From the NCBI RefSeq assembly GCF_018977255.1, contig NW_024704742.1, forward strand, positions 75,580,001 to 75,644,000: a stretch of 64,000 nt of DNA. Direction: 5' to 3'. The notes beneath the pieces were generated by a model. The model saw only the letters and a program-made list of their open reading frames with translations, did no database searches and was not told the origin of the DNA. Shown here piece after piece: positions 16,623-51,426 of this stretch. This stretch comes from Callorhinchus milii (taxonomy: Eukaryota). The translations under genes and the position numbers were made by a program. Every line of letters starts with the position of its first letter. Positions within the stretch are counted from its first letter, which is position 1.

Positions 16623-16630
16623 TCGCTCAC

Positions 16631-17066
16631 CTGTATCACAGCCGCCTTTCCCTCTCCTGCTCACGGTGGTCCGCCCCTCCCTGAGCGCTCGGTTGGCCGC
16701 CGCTCGCAGGTCGCAGCCGTCGCTGTAGGAGACGCCGTCGCTGCCGCACACGGGGTCGGGTGACTTGCACACGCACCGCCCTTTGCCCCCCTTCCCCCTC
16801 GGGCCGCCGGGGCGCTCGCACTCGTAGCCTCGGGCGCAGCGGCCGTACTTGCCCTCGCGGCCGCCGCACGGCTCCCCGGGACCGGCGGCGCACACCGAGC
16901 AGCAGCCGCAGCGGTCCGACAGCCGCCCCCGCGGGCAGCCCTCGGGGGGCAGCGGCGGGCACTGCCCGGGCTGGCAGGGCGGGCAGCGCGCCGCGACCCG
17001 CTTCTGCCCGGCCAGGGCCGGCACCAGCAGCAGCCACAGCCCGGAGAGCAGCAGCTCCGCTCGCAT
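16631..17066 (-). CDS. IGFBP7: IGFBP7-like, coding part of exon 1 (signal peptide, IGFBP N-terminal domain, Kazal domain); later exons not found in window
   Basis: GCCATG start at 17066. Translation [20 protein letters not shown]...[42 protein letters not shown]...[48 protein letters not shown]. Ends in a phase-1 donor G|GTGAG at 16631/16630. The motifs CPPLPPxGC, CGCCxxC and CVCKSxxPVCGSDG...GCxLRAA match IGFBP7 exon 1. Ortholog versus paralog cannot be settled here. Confidence 0.85.
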
Positions 17067-17134
17067 GGCAGGGCGCGGGGAGAGGTCTCTGCTGCCGAGC
17101 AAACGTGCGGCTTCCCCTCGGCTTCCACTACTGA

Positions 17135-17180
17135 CTGACTGACTGCGGAGGGTCTGAGCCCAGAGCCACTTATACAGCAG
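17135..17180 (-). promoter_or_regulatory. Core promoter of the IGFBP7-like gene: TATA box and Inr-like repeats
   Basis: Minus strand reads CTGTATAAGTGG (TATAA at 17170-17174), followed about 25-35 nt later by CAGTCAGTCAGT. This is about 105 nt upstream of the ATG, at the edge of a CpG island (about 16620-17150). Confidence 0.6.
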
Positions 17181-18590
17181 CCAGACTCCACCCTGCCCTG
17201 CCCTGCCCTGCCAGGCACCCTGCCCTGCCCTGCCTGCCCTGCCCTGCCAGGCACCCTGCCCTGCCCTGCCTGCCCTGCCAGGCACCCTGCCCTGCCCTGC
17301 CCTGCCAGGCACCCTGCCCTGCCCTGCCCTGCCAGGCACCCTGCCCTGCCCTGCCAGACTCCACCCTGCCCTGCCCTGCCCTGCCAGGCACCCGGCCCTG
17401 CCCTGCCCTGCCAGGTACCCTGCTCTGCCCTGCCCTGCCCTGCCAGACTCCACCCTACCCTGCCCTGCCCTGCCAGGCACCCTGCCCTGCCCTGCCCTGC
17501 CAGGTACCCTGCCCTGCCCTGCCCTGCCCTGCCAGACTCCACCCTACCCTGCCCTGCCCTGCCAGGCACCCTGCCCTGCCCTGCCAGGCACCCTGCCCTG
17601 CCCTGCCCTGCCCTGCCAGGCACCTTGCCCTGCCCTGCCAGGCAAACACCCTGCCCTGCCCTGCCAGGCACCCTGCCCTGCCCTGTCCTGCCAGGCAAAC
17701 ACCCTGCCCTGCCTGCCCTGCCCTGCCAGGCACCCTGCCCTGCCCTGCCCTGCCAGGCAAACACCCTGCCCTGCCCTGCCAGGCAAACACCCTGCCCTAC
17801 CCTGCCCTGCCCTGCCAGGCAAACACCCTGCCCTGCCCTGCCAGGCAAACGCCCTGCCCTGCCCTGCCAGGCAAACACCCTGCCCTGCCCTGCCAGGCAA
17901 ACACCTTGCCCTGCCCTGCCAGGCAAACACCCTGCCCTGCCAGGCAAACACCCTGCCCTGCCCTGCCAGGCAAACACCCTGCCCTGCCCTGCCAGGCAAA
18001 CACCCTGCCCTGCCCTGCCAGGCAAACACCCTGCCCTGCCCTCCCCTGCCCTCCCCTGCCCTGCCAGGCAAACACCCTGCCCTGCCCTGCCCTGCCAGGC
18101 AAACACCCTGCCCTGCCCTGCCCTGCCAGGCAAACACCCTGCCCTGCCCTGCCAGGCAAACACCTTGCCCTGCCCTGCCAGGCAAACACCCTGCCCTGCC
18201 CTGCCTGCGCTGCCTGCCCTGCCCTGCCCTGCCAGGCAAACACCCTGCCCTGCCCTGCCAGGCAAACACCCAGCCCTGCCCTGCCAGGCAAACACCCTGC
18301 CCTGCCCTGCCCTGCCAGGCAAACACCCTGCCCTGCCCTGCCAGGCAAACACCTTGCCCTGCCCTGCCAGGCAAACACCCTGCCCTGCCCTGCCTGCGCT
18401 GCCTGCCCTGCCCTGCCCTGCCAGGCAAACACCCAGCCCTGCCCTGCCAGGCAAATACCCAGCCCTGCCCTGCCCTGCCAGGCAAACACCCAGCCCTGCC
18501 CTGCCAGGCAAACACCCTGCCCTCCCCTGCCCTGCCAGGGAAACACCCAGCCCTACCTTGCCCTGCCAGGCAAACACCCAGCCCGAGCAC
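17181..18590. repeat. G-rich pentamer-based minisatellite (GGGCA)n on the gene's sense strand, with TGCCAGGCA and CAAACAC variants
   Basis: Plus strand is (CCCTG)n punctuated by CCAGGCACCC (proximal) and CCAGGCAAACACCC (distal). It produces the spurious GRAGQG/PCPAL ORFs. Confidence 0.95.
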
Positions 18591-19275
18591 CCCACTCCCT
18601 TTACATCCCCCCCCCCCCCCCAACCACACACACACACATACTCACTCACACACTGGTCCAGGCTTTCCTCCTGTGGTTTGCTTTGCTTTGCTTTGATTTG
18701 CAAAACCTTCAAGATTCGGGAATTTGCAATTTTTTAAAAAGTTTCCAAGCATTTTTAAAAAAAAAAACAATCGCTGATCGTGAGCTCAGTGAAAGACATG
18801 CATTTTGAAAGTTTTGCAAATCGATTTCAAAGCATAAAATTCCACCCACCCCCCCTCCCCCACAAAAAAAGACAGAAAAATAAAAATATACAATTTATAT
18901 ATAGATAGAGAACCAACTCAAGAGTTCACCCACAATGAAAAATAATGAATTGCTATCACTGGGGTATTTATCAGTATGAATTATAAATACTTCTTTAAAA
19001 ATATTCTTTAATGTATATAGGTTAGCTGCAGTGCAGTTGAAACTCATAGTTAAAGTGAAGTTTATACTGTATCCATCTCCTAATTTGTTAGTTTGGAATT
19101 TTGGCTTCCATCAATTTCAAATGAAAGAAACACAATTATAATCTGTATAATAATCTATAATAAAGTGCAAACATGCATTGAAATCGTCAAACCCATATTT
19201 GTTTTTACAAATATTTACAAATATCGGAACTGATGCGAAAAAGTAACCTAAATAGTGAGTTGCCCTCTTATTGAA

Positions 19276-19312
19276 AAAAATGTAAAATACTGCAGATGCC
19301 GGAAATCTTTCT
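19276..19312. mobile_element. Very short end fragment of the same Penelope-type family, with target-site duplication
   Basis: aaaatgtaaaatactgcagatgccggaaatc matches 22630-22660. ctcttattgaa occurs at 19265-19275 and 19313-19323. Confidence 0.65.
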
Positions 19313-19469
19313 CTCTTATTGAAGTGCTTACAAAGTGAGGTTCAACATACTATAGGTTGTCCTGAATCTGGAATAGATCTAGTACAACTCCTACCATTCC
19401 TCCTTACCCCATTCAATCATTTAATCCAAGCAAGTGAACAGGAAATAACATTATGGGATATATTACATA

Positions 19470-21915
19470 TTTCACTCACTGAAATAGTGTTTGGGTAGAT
19501 TTCTTCTGAATTTACCCCCCTTCAATCACAGGCCATGTCCTCTGGCTTTACTATTCTTGACAAGTTGAAACAGTCTGTCATGACCTATATTGTTTTGCCC
19601 CTTTAGAATCTTAAAGACGGCAATCATGTCACCTCTCAATCTTCTCTTTTCCAGCGGGAACATGCCCAATTTACCTAGTCGCTCTTCACAGTCCAGTACT
19701 TCCATTCCCTCGATCATTTTAGTTGCCCTCCTCTTATCTTCTGGATTTCTCCAATATCCTTTTTGTACTGCGGCGACTAGAACTGTACACAGTACTCTAA
19801 GTAAGGTCTCACCAATGTTTTATACAGCGGCAGGATTACTCCACTATTTTGGCTTGCTATTGATCTTTTGATACATCCCAACATCTGGTTTGCTTTACTC
19901 ACTGTCACAGAGCATTGTTGGGAGAGCTTCAATTTATTGTCAATCAGGACCTCCAAGTCGTTTACATTTTCCATACATATTACTTTACTTCCATTCAAAT
20001 AATAGTGCCTTTCAGGATTTTTTGTACCCATGTGAAGTACTTTACATTTCTTCCCATTGAACTTCATTTGCCACTGATCTGCCCAATTCCCAAGTATGTT
20101 CAAATCCTCCTGTAACCTATCTTGTTCAGCTTCGCAATCTACCACTTTCATTAGCTTGGTGTCATCTACAAACTTAGTCACTGTGCTTATGACTCCTAGT
20201 TCCAGATCATTTGTAAAAATATTGAACAAAAGAGGCCCTGAAACGGACCCTTGTGGAACTCCACTGGTAACATTTTCCCAATCTGATGATATTCCCTGTA
20301 CCACCACCCTTTGGGTTCTGTGGTCAATCAATTGTGTATCCATTGTAATATACCTCCACTGATTCCTGCTTTCTTTACTTTCAGTACCAGCCTCTCAAGA
20401 GGAACTGTATCAAAGGCCTTACTGAAATCCAGATATACAACATGCACAGTCTTATCCTTATCAAGTTCCCTTGTTACACTGTCAAAGAAAAACAGTAAAT
20501 TAGATTGGCAAGACCTTCCCTTCATGAACTCATATTGATTATAATTTATGATTTTATTTCTGTCCAGATGCTCCATGATTTTATCCTTAAGAGTCTCCAT
20601 AATATTACCCACAAAGGAAGTCAAACTTACTAGTCTGTAGTGTCCTGGGTCACTTTTGTTACCTTTCTTAAAAGTAGGAGTAACATCTGCCTCTCTCCAA
20701 TCACCTCTCTCCAGTATTCAGTGATTTTTGAAAGATTTGTGCCAGCGTTTCTGCAATTTGCTTCCTTAGTTCCTTAAGGATCCTCGGATGCAATTTATCC
20801 GGCCCCTGAGGTTTATTTACCTTAAGTTTACACAGCTGTTTGGCAACCATGCTGGTAATGATATGAATAGTGTCACAACTTTTCTCTGACACTTCCTTGA
20901 GTTCTCTTTCCAGATCAGATAGGTTATCTGTCTTCTCCTTGGTAAAGACTGATGCAAAAAACTTATTTAGCAACTTATTTGTAGCCTGTGTAGCGTTATT
21001 TGTCATGTTGTCTCCTGAACGCACCTTCAGTGGTCCTATTCCATTGCTTGTTTTTCTTCTACTCTTAATGTAACTAAAAAACATTTTGTTATTATCCCTC
21101 ACACCTCTTGCCATTTTCAATTCAATGGTTTTCTTTGCCGCCTTTTTTGCAGTCCTGGCATGCCTTCTGGTATTGAGTCCGACTTATTTCTGTGCCATTT
21201 TCCTTCATGGCCTTAAATGCTTCTTTATTCCTCTTTATGATTTGGTTTATAAAGAAGACATGCAATACCAGAAAGCATGCCACGACTGCCCCATCCTCTG
21301 GAACTCCAACACGCAGTCCCTCCGCCTTGCCCCCTCCCTTGCCACCTTCAAGACCCATCGCAAGACCCTCTTCTTCGACCGTGCTTTCGATCTCCCTGCT
21401 TCCGCCCCCTGCCCTCCACCCTCCCTGACCCTAACCCCCAGCTTGGGTCCGTAACTCTGTCTGTCCAGCGTTTTGGGACGTCCTGCCAACGTGAAGGGCG
21501 CTTTACAAATGTAATTTTGTTGTTGTTGTTTGTAGCCCTGGCCAACCAGGCAGGAGTGCCTTTAAGCTTGGTACCTTTGCTTCGCATGAATACACATTGT
21601 TCGATTGCCTTCATAATCACCTCCTTGAAGAAACTCCATAGGTCCTCCACTCCCATTGCTATATTTAAGCCTGCCAAGCCCACTCTGACTAGGTTTCTCA
21701 AGCGCACAAAGTCAGTCCTCTTGAAATTTGGCAGTTTTGTTTCGGTCTTTAGAAACTCACCAACTCTGTGATGTCAAATGTGACTGCATTGTGACCGCTG
21801 TTGCTTAATGCTTCTCTCACCTTTATTTTGGAGATGTGGTCATCCCTGTTACTCATTATCAAATCCAAGAAGTTATTTCCCCTTGTTGGTTCTTTTACAA
21901 ACTGAGTCATAAAAC
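19470..21915 (-). mobile_element. CR1 LINE, degraded ORF2 (end of endonuclease plus reverse transcriptase), interrupted by an L2 fragment
   Basis: ORF fragments contain GPDKLHPRILKEL, YLDFSKAFDTVP, VTSGVPQGSVSGPLLFNIF, KFVDDTKL, LVRPYLEYCVQF and LEKRRLRGDMI. Frameshifts and stops are present. Confidence 0.95.
21290..21531 (+). mobile_element. L2 3' fragment nested in CR1
   Basis: LWNSNTQSLRLAPSLATFKTHRKTLFF and tail ttgggacgtcc...cgtgaagggcgctttacaaatg...(ttg)n. Confidence 0.85.
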
Positions 21916-22539
21916 ATTGTGAATTGTAAATGCTTTAAAATTCAGAGCATTTTATTACAAGACATTACAGGACAAGATAGATTACCATTCAATGCTTAAA
22001 ATATCAGCAACGTTGTGCAAATAGTTGCAGAATGACAAGACCCTGCTTAGCCATTCAGTGTTCTGTCTGGTCAGGCTGCAACTCGTTCCCTTCCTCTCCA
22101 CATTTAAAGCCTGCTTTAAGACCTATCTTTCTGCTTTTGGACTTCTCAGTTTGCCTAACCCTGAGCAAGGGCACCCAGTTAGATGTTGAAGCTCTTTGAC
22201 ACATTGTCCAAACATGAAAGGTGCTATATAAATGTAACTTGTTGTAGTGTCGTATAAAGTTCTGATCATGGTGATGTAAGTGGGCTGCCAAGAGAATAAC
22301 TGTTTTCTAGTTGAAAAACAACTAGATAAATTAACTTGGAGATAAAAATTCAGTTTAGTGTTATACACATTACCTTTAACAATCTCAGCCTTTAATGGGA
22401 TTCTCACATTGGCAAAGACACTGAATTTAAGGCTGAATGGAATTTATAACCCATGGGTTTTCATCCTTGAAAATAAATGTTTCACATGGGACCTTATATA
22501 AGTATGTAAGGTGCAAAATGGGGTTGAGAAAGTAATTTC

Positions 22540-22980
22540 AAAACAATACTTGGCATGTTAAGAGAACAAGAGGATCCAGGCTCAGAGTTGTGAAAGGAAA
22601 GTTTAAAACAGTTACCAGGAAGTATTTACAAAATGCAAAATACTGTAGATGCTGGAAATCGGAAAACAAAAACATAAGTCGCTGGGAAAACTCAGCAGGT
22701 CAGGCAGCATCTATGGAGAAAGGAAAGTGAATCAACATTTTGGGTCAGTTCTGACGAAGGATTGCGAACCCGAAACGTTGACTCACTTTCCTTTCTCCAT
22801 AGATGCTGCCTGACCTGCTGAGTGTTCCCAGCGACTTCTGTTTTTGTTACCAGGAAGTCTTTATTTCACTAGTGGGTAATTAATAGCTAGAACTGGTTAC
22901 CAAGAAGATTTGTAGAGGCCAAGATACTGGACCTGTTTAAGAACCAGCTTAATGTTGTGATGGGTAGATCATACCTCTCT
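22540..22980 (+). mobile_element. Old CR1 3' fragment hosting the Penelope-type insertion at 22628-22845
   Basis: agaacaagagg...gttgtgaaaggaaagtttaaaaca...aggaagt...gtagaggcc resembles the CR1 ORF2 C-terminus. Confidence 0.55.
22628..22845. mobile_element. Short fold-back Penelope-type insertion with about 80-bp inverted arms, a hammerhead-like core and a target-site duplication
   Basis: Arms at about 22666-22746 and 22767-22848 are reverse complements. Flanked by gttaccaggaagt(a/c)ttt at 22611-22627 and 22846-22862. The Penelope assignment is inferred from the motif. Confidence 0.75.
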
Positions 22981-24329
22981 TTTGATGAGACAAGGAATGG
23001 TTGTAAGGAATGGGGATGAGTTCTGCCAGCAATGAAGCCAATCTAATCCATCCAAAGATAACTTTGTAACATGAAGGCAGATATCTTCAATGTGGTATTG
23101 ACTGAGCATTTATTGCACTAAGGAACAGAAACAAATCAATGCCTTGAATGGAGCATGTAGCATCCCATTTATAAGGCAGAAATATGTGTGACATTTACCT
23201 CGGATTGATCGATGTTATTGTCAGAAATATAATAATTCTTGCATTTAATATAACACTTTTCACATTGGAAGGATGTCTCAAAGTCTTCAGGAATAAACTG
23301 TAATGTCTGTAGTGATGTATGTTTTGTAGGTGAACACAGCAGACAATTTGCACACAATAATGTCACAAACAGCCATGTTGTGAATGTCCAATTTTATTTG
23401 GGGTATTTTTGGGTATGAGGAAAAATTCCCTATCTTTCCAAATAGTGCCATAAGATCTTTAATGTCCACCTGAATTGGCAGAAGGAACCTTGGTTTAACC
23501 TCTCATCCAAAGGACACCACCTCCAACAATGAGGTGCACTCTCAGCATTGCATTGGAGTGTAAGCCTAGATTTTATGAGTTCAATGGGTATAATGAGAAT
23601 GCATTTGTCTATATATTGTCTGCATATTTGTTTATTGTGATGGTGCAGATGACTGAAAACAAATGCCTCCTGTTTGCTTGGACGATTCATCTTTACATGG
23701 ATTTTATGCTTCTCAATCATCCAAGGAATGTCCAGTTCCTTATATAATAATAATAATACAATTTAATGACATAATAATAATTACTGTATATTATTTGAAT
23801 TGCTATACAGGTAGAGCAAATTTAGACCTAGGTGGAATTTCTAACCATGCTGCTGGCATCCCTACTAAGGCTTTGTTTTTACCTATATAAATATATGTAT
23901 ATATGTATATATATATTTATATATGTAAAAACAAACCCTTAGCGGGGTCTAATTTGTGGATTTCTTCACCCGGATGTCTTAATAAAGAATCTCATTCAAT
24001 TAGCAATTGACCCATGGAACTTCCAGTTTGGAATTAGATTGTATTAGAACCGAGTTAATTGGCGTGACGTACTCCTAAGTATTGGAAGGAAGGACCCATG
24101 TTCAGGAATCCCATTAAGAAATTCTTCAGATTTGATCCCAGTTTTGCAACGCAGTATTATCCAAATGGGTGACTGGCAGATTTGAATTTTTTTGTACTAA
24201 GCCCTTCCAGACCAAATGGACATGGTAATGGAGCAACACCATGAGGTAATTGATGAGAAGTGCAACTCCCAGCATACAAAAGTGTGGAACTACATGAATG
24301 GACAACATCAACATTGTCTTGCTCTTGGG

Positions 24330-24696
24330 ATAATAATAATAATAATCCTTGCATTTGATTTATCACGTCTTCGAGACGTCTCAAAGCGCTTCACAGAATA
24401 GACTGTAAAGTGAATTGATTGTATATTTTGTGAGCTAAACACGGCGCCAATTGCGCACAGCAGTGTCCCACAAACAGTCATGGATTGTATTACCAAATTA
24501 TTAAAAAAAAATGTAAGGAATTATTACCCACGGAAAAGCTACCTGCCAATCAACTAACAACTGGTTCCTATTTACTGCTAGGTAAACAGAGGCATGTGGA
24601 GTAAGGCAACTTGCCCAGGATTTTGCTTTGCCAGGAATCAAACCCAGGTCTCTCGCTTACGAGGCGAGTGCTCTAATTACTGAGCTACAGGACTCC
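24330..24696 (-). mobile_element. tRNA-derived SINE, long subfamily with an extra central segment
   Basis: Same head and tail plus about 70 nt containing CCTCTGTTTACCTAGCAGTAAATAGG. Confidence 0.9.
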
Positions 24697-24894
24697 ACAA
24701 GGCATGCCAGCAGCATGGGTAGAACTTCCACCTGGGTCTAAACTTACTCTACCTGTAAGCAATTCAAAGCGCCCCGAATTTGGCAACTTCTTAAATACAT
24801 TCATAATTTTGAAGCCATTTGTTTGTAAATTTCTTTTAACCTACAACTTTAAAGTTAAGGCCAAATTCAACAATTTCCTAATTCCTGGATGTTT

Positions 24895-25216
24895 TAATAA
24901 TAATAATAATAATCCTTGCATTTGATATAGCGCTTTTCACGTTGGGAGGACGTCCCAAAGCGCTTCACAGAATACACTGTAAAGTGAATTGACTGTATAT
25001 TTGTGGGCGAACGCGGCAGCCAATTGCGCACAGCAATGTCCCACAAACAGTCGTAGATTGAAAATGACCAATTTATTATTGTTTTGTTTTTGGAGGGATT
25101 ATTATTAGGCTCTGTGTGGAGTAAGGAAACTTGCCCAAGGTTTCGCCCTGACTGGAATTGAACTCAGTTCTCTCGCTTGCAAAGCAAGTGCTCTAACCAC
25201 TGAGCTACAGGACTCC
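24895..25216 (-). mobile_element. tRNA-derived SINE, short subfamily
   Basis: Same head (ctaaccactgagctacaggactcc) and tail as the other copies. Confidence 0.92.
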
Positions 25217-25573
25217 ACTACAGTCCACTGTTTTGAAATGCTAAGTGAATTTAGACTAGAGTGGCATTTCTTCACAGCTATTTTGTTAAACAAGGAATGA
25301 AACCAGAGGGAGCAGCTCCTATTGTGCAATGGATAGAGTTGTTGATTACCAACCAGGTGCTTGCTGTTTGAATTGAAGTCTGTGATGATATTACTGGTCT
25401 TACTAGGGATGCATGGTTCCTCGGTTACAGAGATAATAAAACACCTGCTCCTATTCCCTTTACAAAACCCTATGGTAGTTATGTGCATGTGTGACAGCTG
25501 GGTGGGGAGATGTCAGGATGTTTAATTATTTTTTAATAATAATAATAATCCTTGCATTTGATATAGCATTTTA

Positions 25574-25720
25574 TCATAGAATCATAGAACATTACAGCAC
25601 ACAAGGAGGCCATTTGGCCCATCATGCCTGCCACCTCTTTGAAAGAGCTACCCAATCAGTCCCACTCCCCTGCTCTTTCCCCACTTCCTTGCAATTGTTT
25701 CCTTTTCAAGTATCTGTCTA
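25574..25720 (-). mobile_element. CR1 3' terminal fragment
   Basis: catagaatcatagaacattacagcacacaaggaggccatttggccc is the reverse complement of a CR1 (ATTCTATG)n tail. Confidence 0.65.
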
Positions 25721-27127
25721 GCCATGGTCTAATAAATTAGTCAAACAGGCTAATTGGCCTTTTGCTGTTCCTATTCTTACCTTTTTCTGAAACATATTTA
25801 GTAGCATTGTTGGGACAACTTTCAACCAGCCCAGGAAACTATGTACATTTTATATATAAAATATTTATCCAGTCCTGAAAGAAACAAACAAGCTTGTAAA
25901 GCAGCCAAAGTTACATACAACAATGTCTCACAGACAGTCATGAAGTGAATGTTCAATTTCTGATGACCAGAACACCAGGAGAAACTCTGTTCTCTTTTTG
26001 AATAGTCCCATGAGATATTTAATTATCCAGTTGAAAGGGTAGATGGAACCCTGGTTTAACATCTCATCCGAAGGATGGCATTTTCAACAATGCAGCACAT
26101 CTCCAGGACCCCAGCACAGCATTGGAGTGTCAGCCTAGACTAAATGAGTTTAGAATCCCAATTTGGGGCTTGAAGCCACAGAAATGTCTGACTTAGAGGC
26201 GAGACTGTTACCAACTGAGCAAGGTGGACACAAATTTGCAGTCAGTAAGAGGTTGAGTTATTGGGACACCTTCCTCAAATACCCACATTTATTATATTCA
26301 TGTGTACAATATTTTATTTAACTTTGATGCCCAAACATTGCATACATTGCCTTTGGTGATATTTCCCATGGATTTGTCTCGGCCCATATCACTAAAGATG
26401 CGGCACATAACACCAAACCATATTTTTACCCCCATTTGGTCTCAAAGTTTGTGATCATGTAGAGCTGTGGCAAATTGAGGAAAATCTCGATTTGGAAACA
26501 TTTTTTGAAAGAAATGTAGAAAAGGTGTTTCAGAATTATGACCAAATTTAAGAGATCTCCACAATTCTCTGCAATCTTAAACTTAAAGGCAAAATTGTTT
26601 TACAGGGTAACACTGGGTGGGGTTTCAGGCCTTTTGTGTGGTTTTCTTAGATTTATATCCCCTGGAGGTATGTGCCTTAACATTTAGTCTTTCTCATCCC
26701 AAGGATGTCTTTCTTTCAAATTAGCTTTTAACTTAAAACTTTAAAATTGGTTCCACCCATGCACCGCAGGAACAAACGACAAATTGGCTGAACATTAAGA
26801 GAACATTGTTAGGAGGAGTAATTGCTGGAATGTATCGTGTTTGAACAGAAACGCAATGGAATAAAAATTGCATTTTTGAACTGGTTCATTTGGTGTTCAG
26901 ACAGGCATGTAAAATAATGACAGAATATCCAACCTCTTGACTCAGAGGGAAACTGGGGAGGGGAAAGCTATTAGCTATAAGATAAGAAGGGAAAAACAGA
27001 TCCTAGCTATGCTAATTTATTTTTGGGGAACAGGCAAGTTATATTTCCAAGAAAAATGTAACTTGCCAAATTGCCAGCTTTTGTAATTCGTGCATAAGGA
27101 ACCATTGACTAAATATAGTGAATTCCT

Positions 27128-27357
27128 AAACAAAAATAGAAGTTGCTGGGAACACTCAGCAGGTCAGGCAGCATCTATGGAGAATGGAAAATGAGTCAAC
27201 GTTTCGGGTCCACGACCCTTTGTCAGAACTGAACCCATAACCCTTCATCAGTGCTTCGTCAGAAACATCTTTTCTACATTTCTTTCAAAAATGTTCCCAG
27301 CAACTTCTGTTTTATTTTCAGATTTCCAGCATCTGCAGGATTTTGCATTTTGGCTAC
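27128..27357. mobile_element. Second Penelope-type fold-back insertion, rearranged, with target-site duplication
   Basis: Same ctcagcaggtcaggcagcatctatggaga arm and gatttccagcatctgcag...ttttgcatttt end. agtgaattcct is duplicated at 27117-27127 and 27358-27368. Confidence 0.75.
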
Positions 27358-27529
27358 AGTGAATTCCTGTTTCTTTGCATTGTTTACCAGAGAAAACTAT
27401 GTAAATCAGTAAGATACACAAATAGTAGGAGACATCAATTTATAACGCTCATCATCAGAGACGACGGAACGTAAATTCAACTTTAATGAAAAATATTTAC
27501 ATATACCTAAAATATCAAGTCTGTGTTCC

Positions 27530-27884
27530 TTGATATAGAACCTTATCATGTCTTTGAGACATCTCAGAGCACTTCACAGAATATACTGTAAATTGAATTC
27601 ACTGTATATTTTGTGGGTGAAACATGGCAGCCAATTGCGCACAGCAATGTCTTACAAACTGTCGTGGATTGAGTAACTAATTTATTATTATTATTTTTCT
27701 TTAATGAATTATTACCCCTGGAAAAGCAATCCGCCAATCGACTAACAACCGGGTTCCTACTTACTACTAGGTAAACAAAGGAGTGTGGAGTAAGGAAACT
27801 TGCCCAACATTTTGCTCTGCCGGGAATCGAGCCCAGGTCTCTAGCTTGCAAAGTGAGTGATCTAACCACTGAGCTATAGGACTC
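27530..27884 (-). mobile_element. tRNA-derived SINE, long subfamily
   Basis: Homologous to 24330-24696. The head is partly duplicated at about 27912-27938. Confidence 0.88.
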
Positions 27885-28244
27885 TATAATGCTCCATAAG
27901 TAATGCTTTCAACTCTAACCACTGAGTTACAGGACTCCATAGTGCTCCATAAGTAATGCTTTCAGCAAAATATGCATTTGCTGAAAGCATTACTTCTCCC
28001 CTTTTTTTCCTCCGCTCAATAAGTCTTCCACAGCTAAGTGTCTCGTGCCTCAGCATATCCTCCTCTAAAGCTGGTTGCAAGAGGTGTACAAGTGCAGCCT
28101 ACAACAACTATCCCTTTGATATCCTTGTCCCACAAACTGGAAAATTGCATGGCGTAAAAAAAATTGCAAACATAATTGTGTTCCTACCATTCCATTTCAA
28201 TGTGTTGTTGCTCTAAACTCTGGACCTCCATTACCCCAGTCCTT

Positions 28245-28668
28245 GTCAAACTCCATTGACTCTCTGTCACAGAGTGGATCGATTTCAAGATCCTCGCTCT
28301 TGTATTTAAATCCCTTCACGCTCTGGCACCTCCTATCTCTTCAACCTGCTCTCTCCCTGTACTACTACCCACTGCCTCCGCTCGACTGACTCCAACCTCC
28401 TCTTGTTCCCCAGCACTCCACCCCACCAACGGTGGTCGTGCTATTAGCCAGTACACCCTGAAGCTGTGGAACTCTCTCCCTCAATCCCTCGACTTGTCTC
28501 CTCTCCCCATTTTCAGGTCGAAAAGGACTAGAGGACCTTCCTCTTGAACCGTGGCTACGGTCACCTTCTCCCTCCAGCTAGCTTGGTATCGGCCTCCGCC
28601 ACAGTTAAGTGCTCCAAGATACCATCTGGCGTGAAAGGCACCATATAAAGGCAAGTTGTTGTTGTTGC
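28245..28668 (+). mobile_element. L2 3' fragment
   Basis: gatttcaagatcctc...tttaaatcccttcacgctctggcacctcc...ctgtggaactctctccc, with a (ttg)n tail. Confidence 0.8.
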
Positions 28669-37159: not shown

Positions 37160-37390
37160 CCAAGACCATTTCACAGAGGTAGGGAGGAGCAAGGCCAGGG
37201 AGGGCTTTGAAGGTGAAGACCAGGAACATGAACTGTATCCTCAGTGCAATGGGAAGCCAGTGGAGTTGGGCAAAGATGGAGGTGATGGGGTCACAGAGCC
37301 TGGTGTGGGAGAGGGTATGGGCTGCAGAGTTCTGGGTGATCTGCAGCCTGTGGAGGGAGGAGTTGTGGAGGCCGACAAGCAGGGAGTTCA
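37160..37390 (-). mobile_element. L2 ORF2 fragment
   Basis: RLQITQNSAA...ITSIFAQLHWLPIALRIQF...FKALPGLAPPYL. Confidence 0.85.
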
Positions 37391-38909: not shown

Positions 38910-38958
38910 AACTGATGAGAACAGAAACTACATTGATCTTAGCCAAAAAGTCCAAGAA
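38910..38958 (-). pseudogene. U2 snRNA 5' fragment (about the first 55 nt), degraded
   Basis: Minus strand TTCTTGGACTTTTTGGCTAAGATCAATGTAGTTTCTGTTCTCATCAGTT aligns to U2 TTCTCGGCCTTTTGGCTAAGATCAAGTGTAGTATCTGTTCTTATCAGTT. Confidence 0.85.
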
Positions 38959-39606
38959 ATTAAGTTTAATTTCTTAAACTCCTCTCATTGAACTGCATGG
39001 TTTGGAATACTTTTCATTTGACTTTCAAAGCTGGTTTCTAAAGCAGCCCAGTTGGATGGATGAGATTCTCCTCTCTCTTATGTCTTCGCTTTAATTACTT
39101 TGGACAGGCGCAACCTCGTTCTTAAAAGGTGCAAGCCCATTTTAACTGAAGCCTGGATTTGCTTTGGCCCTGCTGACAGTGAGTGGTGTGGCTGTGGATG
39201 ATGGCTGTTTTTCACATCAGTATCTGTATGAAGCACTGTCAGATTCAATACAAGATGAATTAGACACAGGGCAAAGTGGCCTTCAGGTTTCTGTGAATTA
39301 CCTTCTTGTACATTATGCAGTAACCTCCCTTAGAGAAGGAGACAGGGGGAATGAAAGTTCACCTAACCTTACCCCATGAGGTCATTTCATCTTAAAATTT
39401 AAGATCAGATACATTTGTGAAAGATTATACAATTAATTTAGAAGCCAATTTTCCACAGTTCTTAAAAAGAACCAACTTTCTCTCATTCAGCAGATGGGAA
39501 ACTGCCCCTGTGTTTCGTGGACTGAGGTGACAAAAAAAAAGTTGTCAGGGCTAAATCTCAAGCCTTAGATACTTAGGAACATAAAAAAAAGGAATAAAAA
39601 GAAAAA

Positions 39607-41405
39607 TCACTGAATACTGGAGAGGTGCCGGGGGACTGGAGAAAGGCAGATGTTACTCCTATTTTTAAAGTAATTTTTTGGGTCACTTTTAAAAGTGACC
39701 CAGAAAACTACAGACCAGTAAGTTTGACGTCCATTGTGGGTAATATTATGGAGTCTTTTGAAGGATAATAATAATAATAATCCTTGCATTTGATATAGCG
39801 CTTTTCACGTCAGGAGGACGTCCCAAAGCGCTTCACAGAACACACTGTAAAGTGAATTGACGGTATATTTGTGGGCGAACGCGGCAGCCAATTGCGCACA
39901 GCAATGTCCCACAAACAGTCGTAGATTGAAAATGACCAATTTATTATTGTTTTTTGTTTTGGAGGGATTATTATTAGGCGTGTGGAGTAAGGAAACTTGC
40001 CCAAGGTTTCGTCCTGCCTGGAATTGAACTCAGGTCTCTCACTTGCAAAGCGAGTGCTCTAACCACTGAGCTACAGGACTCCAAAAAAAAAATCATGGAG
40101 CGTCTGGACAGAAATAAAATCATAAATGATAGCCAATATGGGCTCATGAAGGGGAAGTCTTGCCAATCTAATTTACTGATTTTTTTGATGGTGTGACAAG
40201 GGAGCTTGAAAAGGGTAAGGCTGTTGATATTGTATAGCTGGATTTCAGTAAGGCCTTTGATACAGTTCCTCTTTGAGAGGTGGTACTGAAAATAAAGAAA
40301 GCAGGAATCAGTGGAGGTATTTTACAATGGATACGTGACTGGTTGACCGGAAGAACACAGAGGGTGGTGGTACAGGGAATATCATCAGACTGGGAAAATG
40401 TTACCAGTGGAGTTCCACGAGGGGCTGTTTTGGAGCCTCTTTTGTTTTAATATTTTTGTAAATCATCTGGAACTAGGAGTCTCAAGCACAGTGACTAAGT
40501 TTGCAGGGGACACCAAGCTAATGAAAATGATAAGATTGCGAAGCTGAACAAGATAGGTTACAGGAGGATTTGAACATACTTGGGTACTGGGCAGATCGGG
40601 GGCAGATGAAATTTTATGTGGAAAAATGTACATCACATGGTGACAAAAAATCCTGGAAGGAACTATTATTTGAACGGAATGAAAATAAAATGTATGGAAA
40701 ATGAAAAGGACCTCGGAATCCTGATTGACAATAAATTGAAACTCTCCCAACAATGCTCTGTGGCAGTGAGTAAAGCAAACCAGGTGTTAGGATGTGACAA
40801 ATGATCAATAGTAAGCCGAAATAGTGGGGTAATGTTGTCACTGTATATATCATCGGTGAGACCACACTTAAGGAGTACTGTGTACAGTTCAGGTCACCAC
40901 AGTACAAAAAGAATATTGTAGAAATTGAGAAGATACAGAGGGCAACCAAAATGATTGAGGGAACAGAGGTGCTGGACTAAGAGGAGCGACTAGATAAATT
41001 GGGCATGCTCATGCTAGAAAAGAGGAGGTTAAGACGTGACATGATTGCTATCTTTAAGATTCTAAAAGGGCGAGACAATATAGATCATGACAGGCTGTTT
41101 CAACTTGTCCAGAATAGTAGAACCAGAGGACATGGCCTGCGATTGAAGGGCGGTAAATTCAGAACAAATTTACGCAAACACTATTTCAGTGAACGAATAG
41201 TGAACCTGTGAAACAGGTTCCTTAGGGAGACAGTTGAAGCAGGAAGTGTAGATTCTTTCAATCACAGATTAGTTTTCTTTTAGGAAAAAACATGGATATA
41301 GTACATAGGTAGTTTGGGACATATGTGCATGTGACCGCCAGGAAGGTGAAAGGCGAACTAGATGGACCTTGGTTATTTTTCATCTAGCGTTTCTTATATT
41401 CTTAT
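39607..41405 (+). mobile_element. CR1 LINE, 5'-truncated, same family as the 19.5-21.9 kb copy, with a nested SINE
   Basis: DNA matches the first copy in reverse orientation (for example ggatttcagtaaggcctttgatacagttcctc). Has LEKRRLRRDMIAIFKIL...GHGLRLKG and a CR1-type 3' tail ending ttcttatattcttatg. Confidence 0.93.
39765..40082 (-). mobile_element. tRNA-derived SINE, short subfamily, nested in CR1
   Basis: Near-identical reverse complement of 41918-42240. It splits the CR1 sequence. Confidence 0.92.
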
Positions 41406-41917
41406 GAGTTAACCAATAGCTCTTAAGTATAAGAATCTGTATTGAAGAACGGATCTTCCAAGGTTACGGGCATTGCCGCTAATCTTTTCACAAAGACCTT
41501 TACAATGCAAATATGTAGAAAGGTCTATTCAAGAACATTTCAATAAAATCAATAAAGTTATGTAGCCACTGGTGACACGATTCATTGGCATTCTTGCCAA
41601 AATGACTAAGGCGAACTAGATAGACGTTGGTCTTTTTTTGTCTAGCATTTACGTTCTTATGTTAAGTGTGGAATGAGGAAAAACAATTCAGCCCATTTAA
41701 CCACCCTGTGAACATTTGCTTAAGTGGTTGGTTTCGTTGGCTAATTTCACAACTGTTCATGTCAAACCACTGGACCTTTCTGATCATTGGAATTAGAGAA
41801 CCCTGGAAATATAGAATGCCTGAAGACCTTCCTATTCGACTGTGCCTATGGTCACCTCCCCCAGCTCAGCTTGGCGCTCCATCACTGTCAAGCGCTCTGG
41901 GATGCTACCCTGCGTGT

Positions 41918-42240
41918 GGAGTCCTGTAGCTCAGTGGTTAGAGCACTCGCTTTGCAAGCGAGAGACCTGAGTTCAATTCCAGGCAGAGGGCGAAACCTTG
42001 GGCAAGTTTCCTTACTCCACACAGAGCCTAATAATAATCCCTCCAAAACAAAAAACAATAATAAAAATTGGTCATTTTCAATCTACGACTGTTTGTGGGA
42101 CATTGCCGTGCGCAATTGGCTGCCGCGTTCGCCCACAAATATACAGTCAATTCACTTTACAGTGTGTTCTGTGAAGCTCTTTGGGACGTCCTCCCGACGT
42201 GAAAAGCGCTATATCAAATGCAAGGATTATTATTATTATT
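41918..42240 (+). mobile_element. Full-length tRNA-Ala-derived SINE (young, short subfamily) inserted in an L2 tail
   Basis: A box TAGCTCAGTGG (41927), anticodon arm CTCGC-TTTGCAA-GCGAG (TGC), B box GTTCAATTCC (41971), L2-like tail and (TTA)n end. Confidence 0.92.
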
Positions 42241-42529
42241 ACTATATAAATGCAACGTTGTTGTTGTTTGAATAGAGCCAAGTCCATCCAAGCAGGCAGA
42301 TGGAATCTTGCTTTAAAGTCTTATCCTCTGACAATGTGGGGCTCCCCAGCATTGCAACCTAGACTTTCTATGAGCAAAAAGTCCTGATCACTTCCACAGC
42401 CAACAAAGCCTTTTTCATAGACTTTGTTGCCATAGTTGTCAGTGTAGCATTACAAGGCAAATCCATTATGTAAAAACTATATTATTAATCCCTGCATTGA
42501 TATAGTAGATGTATAAAAGAACATGTTTC

Positions 42530-43301
42530 TCAAGAGAGGCGTAAAGAATTTTATTAAAACACATCATACAAGACTACAAAGCACAGATTTTTAAATTGAT
42601 ATACATAAAGTAATCATGATCCACATAATTGGAGTAGCACTTGTGTAAAAACCTCTTTGTGACTGCCTTATTTATGCCATGGGGCCAGCAATAGAGTTAG
42701 CAAATATCCATGCAGTGGCTTCTGTTTAATACTTGGAGACTTCAGGAGCAAATAAGTAGCTATTTGGTTAGTTAAATAAAACAGAACACATCCTTTGAAA
42801 TATAAAAGTACAGTTTTGAAACAATCCATCCAATAACTATTTTCCAGTACCAAAGAAGACTAGTCTATTTTGCGATTGACAACATAGAAGTCGTGTTGCA
42901 CAAAGACTATGATGAAAGATTATAATTCTGTTAATCTAGCATGAAATGCATTGTTGCTTTGTTAGTAATTCTTACTACAATGTTACAAAATCACACGCGG
43001 AGTACACAAATCTCACACATCTCAAACATTTTTGAGAAATGTCCTCCATTCACAAATCAAGTCAAATCTAAGACATTCTGATTCTCAAATCCCCTGGCAA
43101 ACCCATACACTATAATCATTTTATAACTTGCCTACCCCATGTTGTCATAAAAACTTTACAAAAGTAGAAGAGAAATGGTACAAAATACATTATGTCTGTT
43201 TCAGTTAGTTATGTTGCACCTTTGCCTAACCCTAAAAGAAGTAGCAGAGGGATGTATCACTGTGGGGTCACCGGCCACAGCATCTAAAATCAGCCAGTGT
43301 C
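42530..43301 (-). other. Putative 3' UTR of the IGFBPL1-like gene with polyadenylation signal
   Basis: AT-rich block without recognisable repeats. AATAAA on the minus strand at 42550-42555. Confidence 0.5.
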
Positions 43302-43339
43302 CTAATTGTCCTTCTCTTTGGGGTCGGTTTTCTTATTAC
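43302..43339 (-). CDS. IGFBPL1: Probable terminal coding exon 5 of the IGFBPL1-like gene
   Basis: Acceptor CTGAC-TGTTTTTATTTCAG (branch point, pyrimidine tract, AG). A phase-1 join with exon 4 gives GNKKTDPKEKDN-stop. Followed by about 750 nt of AT-rich sequence without recognisable repeats, ending near an AATAAA. No homology support, signals only. Confidence 0.55.
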
Positions 43340-46355: not shown

Positions 46356-46473
46356 CTTTAGTCCTGATGGTTTTCTCTATTACTTTGATTGTTTCTTCGG
46401 TCTGAACCTCTCCCAGGATGTTGCTGGCATGACACTGATAAACACCTTCATCTTCCTTTGTCAGTGGATTAAT
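46356..46473 (-). CDS. IGFBPL1: IGFBPL1-like exon 4 (end of Ig domain)
   Basis: CAG acceptor at 46474. Encodes INPLTKEDEGVYQCHASNILGEVQTEETIKVIEKTIRTK with the Ig motif DEGxYxC. Probable phase-1 donor AAG|GTATG at 46356/46355. Confidence 0.88.
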
Positions 46474-47039: not shown

Positions 47040-47156
47040 CAAGACCCATCCTGTGCTTTCGTGCTTAGATGGGCCACCACGGACTTGAATGGCCACATTT
47101 ACTCGGTCTCCAGGCAGTTCTTCCAGCAGCTTCACCCCCTTGGGAGACTCTGTGAC
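47040..47156 (-). CDS. IGFBPL1: IGFBPL1-like exon 3
   Basis: CAG acceptor, GTAAG donor, 117 nt, phase 0 to 0. Encodes VTESPKGVKLLEELPGDRVNVAIQVRGGPSKHESTGWVL (IGFBPL1 signature EELPGDxVNxAxQVRGGPS). Confidence 0.92.
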
Positions 47157-50100
47157 CTGTCCACAATAGAATCATTGACTAAATACATCATAAGAGAGGT
47201 TTACATTTAACAAAAGACTCTTTGGCCTATTCGATCATATGTATATACATAAAAAGTGTTTTGACTGTATTTTACAGGCAAATAACAGCAGCTAATATGT
47301 ACACAGCAATGACCCACAAACCACTGTGAAATCAATTACATTTTTTTTAATATTGGGGGGATTGCTGGTTAGGACACTGGGAGAAACTCCCTTCTCTTTT
47401 CAAGTAGTTTCACAGGATGAGTCTGAACAGATAGACGGGACCTCGGTTTAACATCTTATATCTACCTTAACATCTTCAGTACAGTGTTAAGTTTATTTCT
47501 TAAATGAGTCCAATATCTTAGTTGCTACCACTCTTCCGAAGCCCCTCTAGATGATCCCCACGCACTGACCCATTATCATATTTGAACATAAGATGAAAGC
47601 GTTGCTGTCCAAAGGGCAGGAATTCAGGGCTGTGAAAAGCAATTTACTGGGAGGAGTGCCTCTACTCCAAACAACGATCCGGTGGGAATGATCAGATTGA
47701 TTGCAAGGGAACAGAAGTCTGGGTCAGTCTGTGCCACAGGAATGGGGTAGAAACACACGTTGGTTGAATGGCGTTGCTCTACACATGGTCTAAGCTGCTC
47801 GGTTGGCTTGGCTTGATTGACTGAAGTATATTCGACCACTGTATACTCTTAATTCCACTACTGTGCCCACTACAACACTGTGAGGAATAATAAATTGGCA
47901 GTGTTGAAAAATGGACGGGTAAAAGACTATCTGGTTCCCAGCATGTGACAATAGTCTATTCCAAAGAATTCTATTGAAATTAGCCAACGCTGAGACCTTA
48001 GGAATAGGAAAGTTGAAATCATTTTAAAAAATCAGAAGGTGAAATTGTATGACAGATATGACACTACAACTACGCACTACCTTAATGAAAGGTAGTGCCA
48101 ATGTAAGTAGATTTATGTCTCAATCTGTATCGTTCTATATTTTTTTGTTTATAGCTCCTGTATGGTGACTGAGTTCTGAGTTTCTTAGAAAACACAGGGC
48201 ATAAAGAAAGAACGAGATTAGAAAGATGTTAAGATTATCTTAACAATGTAATATCTATTGCAACATTTATATTTATACCATGTGGGATAATACGAGCCCC
48301 CATTGCCATAAATGATGATTTTCAAACTAACATTTGGAATGAAATCTTAAATGATTTAATCTTTAAATTTTAATACTGATTACATTTTGTCAGGAAGAAA
48401 ATATTGGCATTGTGTTTGTTCACAAGCCATAAAAACTAGCTGATTCTGCTGTTATTTAACAATCCTAATTAATATATAACTAGGGTCAGAGCGGATTCTA
48501 GTGTTTTATCTGCATGAAAAGCAGAGCCGTTTTCTGCTGCCATAATAATATAACAAGCTCTATCAAGTTCTCTAACACATGAGTGGCATTTGTTCCAGGA
48601 GGTTACTTCTAGGATAACATCCAGGAGAACAATATTACAAGTTACAGCTTCAGCACGAACTGTGTGTCATGTTATTCAGGCGGATGCGGGATCAGCCAGG
48701 GAGAATTCCTTTGCTGCTGTCATTCAACCACAAAACATGCAGACACTCCACTTTATAGTATATCTTGCGAAGCTCTTTGGGATGTCCTTCCAACATACAA
48801 CAACAACAACAACAAGATTCCATTTATAAAGCGCCTTTCACGTCAGGAGGACGTCCCAAGGCGCTGCACAGTTGGGTCATGACCCGAGCAGGGGGGAAAT
48901 GGTCAGGGTGAGGGGAGGGAAGGGAGGGAGCGAGGAGGGGGGAAATGGTCAGGGTGAGGGAAGGGAGGGACTATGCCAAAAAAGGGACTATGCCAAATCT
49001 GAGGATTAGAAATACTATCATGATTTCTGGTGCTGTTCCTCAGATAGCCAGTCGGTTCCAAAAGTGCCTCAGAGAAATTGTTTTATGAAGGTATCAGCAG
49101 AGGCTTTGGTTACCATGTGAGCAGAAGCCCTGTAGAATCCATGGTAATGTAAGTGATTTGTCACAAAAAAGAGTGATTTTTCAGTGTGATAAATTGGCTA
49201 CTCACTTCATGGCTATTTGTGGGACATTGCTGTGCGCAACCTGGCTGCCACATTTTGCTCACAAATACATAATATTATAAATAATCCTTGCATTTCGTAA
49301 AGAACCTTATCACGTCATTGAGAAGTTTCAAAGCACTTCACAGAATATACTGTAATTGCAGTCACTGTGTATTTTGTGGGTGAAACATGGCAGACAGTTG
49401 CACACAGCAGTGTCCCACAAAGAGCTATGGAGCGAGCGACAAATTCTTTATTTGGGGGATTGTTGGCTAGGACACCATGCAAAACTCCCTTCTGTTTTCA
49501 AATAGTGCGTGGGATCTTTAACACCCGCCTAAACAGGCAAATGGGATCTCAATTTAACAAGGTTAAACTGAAGGAGTCGGAACTGTTTTGACTGCTTTGA
49601 CTTCACAGGCCAATTTATAAATACAGTCAATCCAATTTGTAACATATCCTCTGTAGGCTTTAAGACTTTTCAACAACATGATAAGGTGCTCTATCAAATC
49701 AAGGATTATTATTATTATTACCCCACCCTATCTCTTTGATTTCCTGTGGTCCTACTCCCCTGCAAATTTCCTTCACCAACACAGCCCTGCTGCATGTTTT
49801 CTGCTTCCTCTACACCACCATCGATGGGCAAGCTCTCAGCCAAATTGGCCCCCAACTCTCTCCTTGAATCCCTTCACCTCATATCTTCCCTCTCTGCTTT
49901 CAAACCCCACCTAAATAGCTATCCTTTTGAATGCACCTTTGGACACCACTTCCATTGGACATTTCCTACCAGCACGGCTCCCACTCTAACTCTGTAATAA
50001 TAATAATAATAATCCTTGCATTTGATATAGTGCCTTATCACTGTGAAGTGTGTTAGGTCGCTCCTACATATAAGGTACTTTCTTTATCCAATACAAATAC

Positions 50101-51316
50101 ACAATTTCATTTGTATAGCGCCTTTCACGTCGGGAGGACATCCCAAGGCGCTGTATAAGTGCAAGTTGTTGTTCACTAAAAACAGGAATCTTTTTGCCAT
50201 GTTTCTATAGCAGGATTCCCCATTCTAAAGGTGTAGCAGCAAGATTGTTATTGTAGTTATCTATCATATAGGCAGCCTACTAATCTCAGAACGTCACTCA
50301 GGGCCATGTGATTTATGGTCACCTTCAACTAGGGTAAGAGAAATAATGGCCATGTTAAGAACAGGATTGTAACAGCTTTATGTGCAATTAAATATCAAAA
50401 TTCTTTCCAAGTGACAGTTTTCCCATCTCAGAAGGTCACTGAGTTCCAGAGAAACACAACATTTTGGGGACATGGCAACGTACAAAAAATCGGAAATTCA
50501 AGAAACAATAATGTCAGTTTGTCACCTCACTTCAGACTCACTTGCTTATTTCAAGAGGGATAGTGCCTGTAGCATTACTTTGTGAAGCTTACCTTGAGAG
50601 GCATCTGGGAGGTGGTGGTGTGGGGGGGGGGGGGGGGGGAGGAATATTATAGACTGATTTTGTTAGCCGATCTCTGGATGAAATAAAGCCTTGCAGCTGG
50701 ACTGTAAAGCACTAGAGGGTGCTAATGAAACAAGATACTGTTATTATTTTATAGTTATAAATTCTGTAAGTATTGAATATGAATGACTTAGATGTCCCAG
50801 AAATGAACAAATCCCTCCTCCCACACACACACAAGTTGGGTCACACATTCAACTTCCGTTTCACAGCATTTGATTGGACTTTACAATCAAAATACCAAAA
50901 AAGCTCTCACTTTTGCTGACTACCATTCAAAAGCCTCTGAGTTAAAATCTGTAACCTGCTTTTAGTTTCCAGTGTTGTTTACACCAAGACATGGTGTTGT
51001 GGAGGGAAAGGGTGTGGGGGGTGCGATTCTTTTCATTCAGCTCTTTTTAACCCTGCAAACCAAAGCCCTGTTGGGCAGGGAGGTCCTAGCTGAACAAGCA
51101 ACAGGAAAATTGTATCTTGGAAATTATAAATTAGAGATCAGAGATGCAGCATCGTCAACAAGTGCTGTTTTTTTTAATTAAGAATAAAACTTGTGAAAAT
51201 GTAATTACAATTTTAAGAGAACACTTTCCTGCAGCTTTTCCTGTTAAGTTATTCACTGGTGACTGTGATGAAACGTACCACACATTGCTGAAGTGTTAAC
51301 TGAATGTTCATCTTAC

Positions 51317-51426
51317 CTTCCTCCAAGTAATAATGGGAGTCGGAACTGCTTTGACCTCACAGGCCAAGTAGACTTGGGAACCAGTCACGTTTTGGATTGG
51401 CTTTGGTGGGATGACGATAACAGGAG
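51317..51426 (-). CDS. IGFBPL1: IGFBPL1-like exon 2 (start of Ig I-set domain)
   Basis: AG acceptor at 51427-51428, GTAAG donor at 51316. 110 nt, phase 1 to 0. Encodes (A)PVIVIPPKPIQNVTGSQVYLACEVKAVPTPIITWRK, close to IGFBPL1 APVVVVPPRSVHNVTGAQVGLSCEVRAVPTPVITWRK. Has an NVT glycosylation sequon. Confidence 0.9.

What the first reader, a model, noticed from the sequence alone, without database searches (positions are those of the whole stretch)
16631..51426. IGFBPL1-like and IGFBP7-like genes in direct tandem
Seen: exons 2-4(5) with IGFBPL1-diagnostic residues lie upstream of, and on the same strand as, an exon 1 with IGFBP7-diagnostic residues, with about 25 kb between the first gene's polyA signal and the second gene's TATA box. 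Known: in human these genes are unlinked (IGFBP7 on 4q12, IGFBPL1 on 9p13). Inference: this may be the ancestral tandem pair. After whole-genome duplication and reciprocal loss, one of the two genes here could be a paralog that mammals lack. I cannot tell whether this has been described.
Basis: partly seen in the sequence, partly recalled or inferred. Interest (0 to 1): 0.75.

Follow-up and report, generated by a model that had tools for sequence, protein, structure and literature searches.

The report
Ancestral IGFBPL1–IGFBP7 tandem gene pair
Two ordinary, intact growth-factor-binding genes that lie on different chromosomes in people sit side by side in this chimaera (elephant-shark) genome and share a chromosome in every shark and ray checked, so they likely arose by an old tandem duplication and were later pulled apart; neither looks like a gene that mammals lost.

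Summary
Two complete five-exon genes lie head-to-tail on the minus strand, 25.4 kb apart, with no gene found between them: IGFBPL1 upstream (exon 1 is 26 kb right of the window) and IGFBP7 downstream (exons 2-5 left of it). The IGFBP7 exon equals an NCBI Callorhinchus milii record. Spliced contigs join the IGFBPL1 exons to their own exon 1. The pair is not peculiar to this genome: both proteins map to one contig in 16 of 16 sharks and rays, with neighbouring accession numbers in 5 of 14, and to one chromosome in 12 of 12 chromosome-scale squamates. Trees follow the species tree, no second copy turned up, and single-copy neighbours of both human loci (POLR2B, EXOSC3) lie within 0.3 Mb here. Best reading: an ancestral tandem pair of 1:1 orthologues, separated later by rearrangement. 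Hidden paralogy is unlikely but not excluded by trees alone. The arrangement is implicit in public annotation; my paper searches found no description of it, and the scan had not noted it on other DNA. Modest interest.

The parts
16631..17066 (-). IGFBP7 coding exon 1 (signal peptide, IB domain, Kazal domain); exons 2-5 lie left of the window at G000:C1:75,564.8-75,573.8 kb
   Evidence: (100% to P0001)
17169..17175 (-). TATA-like word about 103 bases upstream of the IGFBP7 ATG (not tested as a promoter)
17176..42535 (.). 25-kb spacer: 47% repeats, LINE fragments, no Pfam hit other than one reverse transcriptase among 100 ORFs scanned
42536..43339 (-). IGFBPL1 exon 5: last 38 coding bases (43302-43339), 3' UTR, AATAAA at 42550-42555; two contigs end at 42535/42536
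46356..46473 (-). IGFBPL1 exon 4 (Ig I-set, C-terminal part)
47040..47156 (-). IGFBPL1 exon 3 (117 bases, same length and phase as IGFBP7 exon 3)
51317..51426 (-). IGFBPL1 exon 2 (110 bases, same length and phase as IGFBP7 exon 2)
51427..64000 (-). Part of IGFBPL1 intron 1 (38.6 kb in all); coding exon 1 lies beyond the window at G000:C1:75670056-75670512

Best explanation
Two intact paralogous genes, IGFBPL1 and IGFBP7, lie head-to-tail here and likely preserve the arrangement left by an ancient tandem duplication, each likely being the 1:1 orthologue of its human namesake. Shown: two separate five-exon genes, identical intron plan, IGFBPL1 spliced as its own transcript, linkage across cartilaginous fishes. 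Inferred: a chordate IB-Kazal-Ig gene duplicated in tandem before jawed vertebrates diversified; cartilaginous fishes kept the pair adjacent; rearrangements within the same ancestral chromosome moved POLR2B-IGFBP7 and IGFBPL1 apart in the bony-vertebrate line (still one chromosome in lizards and snakes), and chromosome breaks put them on different chromosomes in birds and mammals. Both would encode secreted IGFBP-related proteins made from their own promoters (from family knowledge; not tested).
For: Exon 2 = 110 and exon 3 = 117 bases with phases 1,0,0,1 in both genes; Kazald genes of the same genome have a different intron plan; proteins 50% identical. Spliced contigs join IGFBPL1 exons 2-3-4-5 in 4 of 4 runs (2 studies) and exon 2 to the exon 1 beyond the window in 3 of 4. 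Same chromosome in 12 of 12 chromosome-scale squamates. Trees: amniote IGFBP7 100/99, tetrapod IGFBPL1 100/98, window genes sister to elasmobranch copies. Squamate-mammal identity 68-70% against shark-amniote 56-59% for both genes. AU rejects a linked-versus-unlinked split with close outgroups, p 0.032 and 0.006. One locus of each gene in the genome. POLR2B abuts IGFBP7 tail-to-tail and EXOSC3 lies about 0.25 Mb away; POLR1E, XPA, SRP72 and a NOA1-like gene each give their best match on the same scaffold C1. Jun genes fall on four scaffolds (C1, C5, C21, C29) and latrophilins on C1, C5, C29; no IGFBP7/IGFBPL1 copy was found on the other three.
Against: Two earlier AU set-ups did not reject the alternative (p 0.25 and 0.33 without outgroup; p 0.30 and 0.16 with Kazald outgroups); the rejecting test was the third design and uses unnamed long-branch outgroups. 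Reciprocal retention between cartilaginous and bony lineages gives the same tree as orthology, so only synteny speaks against it. Adjacency in other species rests on accession numbers and contig lengths, not on their DNA; 9 of 14 sharks and rays have gaps of 10 to 12,670 numbers. Human neighbours are split between two C1 regions (4-12 Mb and 75 Mb), so the direction of rearrangement is inferred. No named ray-finned fish, coelacanth or placental IGFBPL1 was in the trees. No outgroup (lamprey, hagfish, amphioxus) gene order was seen. Most human map positions are recalled.
Confidence: 0.85

Rival explanations
1. Hidden paralogy: the tandem pair was doubled by whole-genome duplication, cartilaginous fishes kept one copy of the pair and bony vertebrates kept the other copy of one gene, so one gene here has no mammalian orthologue.
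For: Cannot be excluded by tree shape; AU tests did not reject related splits; the human 4q12 neighbours SRP72 and NOA1 lie at C1:8.7-8.8 Mb without POLR2B-IGFBP7 beside them; Kazald genes are a published case of four such ohnologues with patchy loss (PMC12955574).
Against: Tetrapod-type IGFBP7 and IGFBPL1 share a chromosome in 12 of 12 chromosome-scale squamates; single-copy markers of both human loci are on C1; the other three Jun-marked scaffolds show no copy; no remnant within 160 kb around the NOA1-like gene (only weak Kazal-domain hits); AU p 0.032 and 0.006.
Confidence: 0.07
2. [quoted passage not shown]
For: Direct adjacency was seen only in cartilaginous fishes; in 5 of 5 fragmented snake assemblies the genes are on different scaffolds; the C1 region is heavily shuffled relative to human.
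Against: It needs a chance landing next to the closest paralogue in the same orientation with no gene between; identical intron plans fit a tandem origin.
Confidence: 0.06
3. Assembly misjoin, or one gene whose exons were misread as two.
For: Both first exons are flanked by kilobase microsatellites; no long read was laid across 17-42 kb.
Against: Each gene has its own five exons; contigs join exon 2 to the exon 1 beyond the window; the same linkage appears in the assemblies of 16 elasmobranch species; no N in the window.
Confidence: 0.01

Closest known systems
IGFBP7 (IGFBP-rP1, mac25); NCBI XP_042200905.1 of Callorhinchus milii
   Same: Exon 1 is 100% identical to this record; IB-Kazal-Ig architecture; groups with shark IGFBP7 (100/99); POLR2B tail-to-tail as recalled for human 4q12.
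   Different: Its 5' neighbour is IGFBPL1, and POLR2B is head-to-head with a THAP1-like gene, not NOA1. The NCBI model carries a 109-residue N-terminal extension that begins in a LINE fragment and is probably spurious.
IGFBPL1 (human 9p13.1, PMC1876622 table)
   Same: 11 of 12 hits of exon 1 carry a name and all 11 are IGFBPL1; 77% identical to Heptranchias, 61-64% to echidna and possum IGFBPL1; clade support 100/100; EXOSC3 nearby.
   Different: Lies directly upstream of IGFBP7; flanked 5' by a DAPP1-like gene. The full-length chimaera protein was not among the listed database hits.
Kazald1-4 family (PMC12955574)
   Same: Same IB-Kazal-Ig domain order; same genome holds at least three such loci (C7, C13, C594).
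   Different: 34-41% identity, different intron plan, separate clade; that paper reports four ohnologues from two genome duplications, whereas IGFBP7 and IGFBPL1 are single-copy and adjacent. It does not mention IGFBPL1 (0 occurrences).
Tandem IGFBP pairs IGFBP1/IGFBP3 and IGFBP2/IGFBP5
   Same: Old tandem paralogue pairs in the IGFBP superfamily; adjacent coordinates in chicken are listed in PMC9816805.
   Different: Different domain architecture; those pairs are still adjacent in chicken, this pair appears not to be in birds.

Membership tests
IGFBP7 | IB + Kazal + Ig I-set domain order | tested here: met
   Pfam IGFBP and Kazal on exon 1; I-set precomputed for P0001
IGFBP7 | Falls in the IGFBP7 clade; subfamily residues | tested here: met
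   100/99; 10 of 10 diagnostic columns. With Kazald as sole outgroup IGFBP7 monophyly was unresolved
IGFBP7 | POLR2B as tail-to-tail neighbour (human position recalled) | tested here: met
   Rpb2 domains on the plus strand at C1:75.539-75.564 Mb
IGFBPL1 | IB + Kazal + Ig I-set domain order | tested here: met
   Kazal above cut-off, IGFBP E 5.6e-5 (below curated cut-off), I-set on exon 4
IGFBPL1 | Falls in the IGFBPL1 clade; subfamily residues | tested here: met
   100/100, 95/94; 10 of 10 columns
IGFBPL1 | 9p13-type neighbours (EXOSC3, SHB, STRA6L; recalled) | tested here: inconclusive
   EXOSC3 about 0.31 Mb from its 3' end; STRA6 family found only on C26; SHB not searched
IGFBP7 / IGFBPL1 | Secretion and IGF or insulin binding | not testable with these tools
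   hydrophobic N-termini seen in the sequence; no assay
Kazald1-4 | Kazald clade and intron plan | tested here: not met
   separate clade; introns at other positions
HtrA1/3/4 | Protease and PDZ domains after IB-Kazal | tested here: not met
   both exon 1s continue into Ig exons; HtrA-type first exons are at other loci (names recalled)
Genome-duplication ohnologue lost in mammals | Deep split between linked and unlinked copies | tested here: not met
   AU p 0.032 and 0.006, identities; not rejected
Genome-duplication ohnologue lost in mammals | Flanks paralogous, not orthologous, to the human loci; a second slot elsewhere | tested here: not met
   single-copy POLR2B and EXOSC3 flank the pair; no second locus
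Genome-duplication ohnologue lost in mammals | Reciprocal retention between cartilaginous and all bony vertebrates | tested here: inconclusive
   tree-identical to orthology; opposed only by synteny

The most novel reading that the evidence does not exclude
One of the two genes is a genome-duplication paralogue kept only in cartilaginous fishes, so that shark 'IGFBPL1' or 'IGFBP7' (with POLR2B) is misnamed and marks a reciprocal loss at the root of jawed vertebrates.
Probability: 0.07. Interest if true: 0.6.

Novelty: new member of a known kind. Interest (0 to 1): 0.27.

Why it matters
It gives a simple origin for two human genes that are unlinked today: tandem duplication, not whole-genome duplication, unlike their Kazald relatives. 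It also supplies a breakpoint marker for how one ancestral chromosome was divided between bird 4/Z and human 4/9. It changes no view of protein function, and the data are already in public annotations.

Tried and rejected
AU tests without outgroup (p 0.25, 0.33) were badly posed, since the constraint is met by a small change inside amniotes; with Kazald outgroups (p 0.30, 0.16) they did not reject, and Kazald attached inside IGFBP7. COX18/Oxa1 family search in the genome found nothing, so the teleost cox18-igfbp7 neighbourhood suggested by fused models P0012/P0013 could not be compared. STRA6 family gave only C26. The run search listed no holder on record as RNA; the four runs laid are guessed RNA, but their contigs skip canonical introns. 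Run X8 laid nothing on exon 1 and its contig runs unspliced past exon 2. No DNA run was laid over the spacer. ESM Atlas added no taxon detail. The 50% representative search gave unnamed proteins, so cyclostome or invertebrate copies could not be identified. Accession gaps were rejected as proof of distance in squamates, because close shark relatives also show large gaps. PMC2447278 held neither term in its main text. A 2007 table (PMC1876622) puts the chicken homologue of IGFBPL1 on chromosome 4, against my rhea result; it may be a match to IGFBP7, not checked.
Full report
Anatomy. The exon at 16631-17066 reads on the minus strand as a signal peptide, IB domain and Kazal domain and is 100% identical to an NCBI protein named IGFBP7 of Callorhinchus milii on a 139,202,109-base contig, the length of G000:C1. 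A genome search placed its exons 2-4 just left of the window, and a POLR2B gene faces it tail-to-tail. The upstream exons at 51317-51426, 47040-47156, 46356-46473 and 43302-43339 join in frame with AG/GT ends to a first exon at C1:75670056-75670512, giving a 279-residue protein. Of 12 hits for that first exon, 11 carry a name and all 11 are IGFBPL1. AATAAA at 42550-42555 and a TATA-like word near 17172 are 25.4 kb apart. Among 100 ORFs of the spacer (96 unmasked ORFs of 45 or more residues plus 4 long ones) the only Pfam hit was a reverse transcriptase; short exons could be missed.

Two genes, not one. Contigs of four runs (two studies; guessed RNA) skip the three introns between exons 2 and 5 in 4 of 4 runs, and two end 14-15 bases after the AATAAA. 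Contigs of the same lengths cover the exon beyond the window and continue into exon 2 in 3 of 4 runs. The IGFBP7 splices were not tested with reads; they rest on splice signals, frame and the NCBI model. The two genes share exon lengths (110, 117) and phases (1,0,0,1), while Kazald genes of this genome are cut elsewhere. The proteins are 50% identical to each other and 34-41% to Kazald.

How common is the pair? I could not read other vertebrate genomes, so I used contig lengths and accession numbers. Numbers are 1-2 apart in 5 of 14 comparable species: Mobula hypostoma XP_062902793/794, M. birostris XP_072112420/421, Heptranchias XP_067850467/468, Scyliorhinus canicula XP_038648538-9/540, Chiloscyllium punctatum chiPu_0005753/5752 on a 3.9-Mb scaffold. 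The other 9 are 10 to 12,670 apart, so numbering is not strictly positional; Rhincodon and S. torazame were not comparable. In squamates 12 of 12 chromosome-scale assemblies put both on one contig, but in 5 of 5 fragmented snake assemblies they are on different scaffolds, which suggests linked but not adjacent; related species are not independent. Rhea and echidna have them on contigs of different length (the two rhea lengths differ by only 1.3 kb, but the accessions are about 26,000 apart). No ray-finned-fish IGFBPL1 was among the 120 listed of 462 hits.

Orthology. A 67-row tree gives IGFBPL1 100/100 with the window gene sister to elasmobranch copies and tetrapods in species order. An IGFBP7-only tree gives amniotes 100/99. 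Squamate copies, which are linked, are 68-73% identical on average to bird and mammal copies, but 56-59% to shark copies. AU tests of 'linked copies form a clade' did not reject in two designs and rejected in a third with closer, unnamed outgroups and intermediate taxa (p 0.032 and 0.006; 33 rows; the five Kazald rows and six other unnamed rows were left out). Named placental IGFBPL1 was not available. A reciprocal loss between all cartilaginous and all bony vertebrates would give the same trees, so synteny has to decide.

Synteny. Searches with three queries found one IGFBP7 and one IGFBPL1 locus; other hits were Kazald, HtrA-type or generic domains (only best candidates are scored). Gene order on C1 from 75.29 to 75.85 Mb, by Pfam with gene names assigned from recall: TACR3-like (no Pfam hit), EXOSC3, PIGG, TMEM271-like, HOOK, RNF170-like, Jun-like, THAP1-like (no Pfam hit), POLR2B, IGFBP7, IGFBPL1, DAPP1-like (SH2+PH), DNAJ, ABC transporter, RhoGEF-BAR-SH3. 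EXOSC3 and IGFBPL1 are both listed as proximal 9p probes in human (PMC3033356, table passages). POLR1E (4.06 Mb), XPA (4.89 Mb), SRP72 (8.75 Mb), a NOA1-like GTPase (8.82 Mb) and a latrophilin (11.7 Mb) are on the same scaffold. Next to the NOA1-like gene lies a kinesin (CENPE-like), with no IGFBP7/IGFBPL1 remnant in 160 kb. Pairs recalled as adjacent in human (NOA1-POLR2B, CENPE-TACR3) are thus split between two parts of C1, as shuffling within one chromosome would do. Four Jun loci lie on C1, C5, C21 and C29, one per scaffold, so C1 looks like a single duplication slot. Simakov et al. (PMC7269912, passages) note that blocks split by translocation can be inferred when orthologues stay together in another jawed vertebrate, and also that two paralogous blocks can share a chromosome, which is the residual risk.

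Literature. Six searches on this question (seen as listings) showed no paper describing the linkage; the library lacks most subscription journals. PMC12955574 (passages only; supplements not read and may bear on this) treats Kazald1-4 as genome-duplication products, calls Igfbp7 a chordate innovation and does not mention IGFBPL1. PMC5823240 (passages) names the three human proteins as homologues. PMC9816805 (passages) lists chicken IGFBP7 on chromosome 4. PMC1876622 (one table passage) lists IGFBPL1 at 9p13.1 with a chicken homologue on 4. Searches were seen as listings. The scan's own index had nothing near this place and no note with IGFBPL1.

Verdict. A real, intact tandem pair, probably ancestral for jawed vertebrates and standard in cartilaginous fishes; both genes are probably plain orthologues (0.85). 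It is a new example of a familiar process, visible in public annotation and apparently unremarked. Interest 0.27.

Noticed in passing
window 20701-21183 (minus) and 17067-17200: The NCBI model XP_042200905.1 (378 aa) starts with 62 residues from an ORF inside a LINE fragment (neighbouring ORF 19780-20394 is a reverse transcriptase) spliced to the repeat and 5' leader; the real start is probably the ATG at 17066.
   Followed up: partly
G000:C1:75513640-75517860 (L016, minus): A Jun-family gene whose N-terminal and bZIP parts lie in two ORFs about 3.2 kb apart, so probably intron-containing, whereas the three other Jun loci match in single frames. Likely the fourth Jun paralogue, near a HOOK gene.
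   Followed up: partly
window 14830-16625 and 17185-18600; C1:75.668-75.671 Mb: Both GC-rich first exons are hemmed in by kilobase-long microsatellite expansions.
   Followed up: no
L004:1663 (IGFBPL1 exon 1): One run's contig lacks 24 bases in frame in the charged repeat between the IB and Kazal domains; probably a length allele.
   Followed up: no
window 51315-52000: Run X8's contig continues unspliced from exon 2 into intron 1 for at least 570 bases; retained intron or alternative start.
   Followed up: no
G000:C1:75679300-75679600 (L023): CpG-rich promoter-like island between IGFBPL1 exon 1 and the DAPP1-like gene, owner unknown.
   Followed up: no
proteins P0012, P0013: Electric-eel models fuse an Oxa1/COX18-type protein to IGFBP7, suggesting these genes are neighbours in teleosts.
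   Followed up: partly
G000:C7:27.69 Mb, C13:14.75 Mb, C594: At least three Kazald-type loci in this genome.
   Followed up: partly
proteins P0234, P0242, P0262: Unnamed deep-branching IGFBP7- or IGFBPL1-like proteins, possibly from jawless fish or invertebrate chordates; would date the duplication if named.
   Followed up: partly
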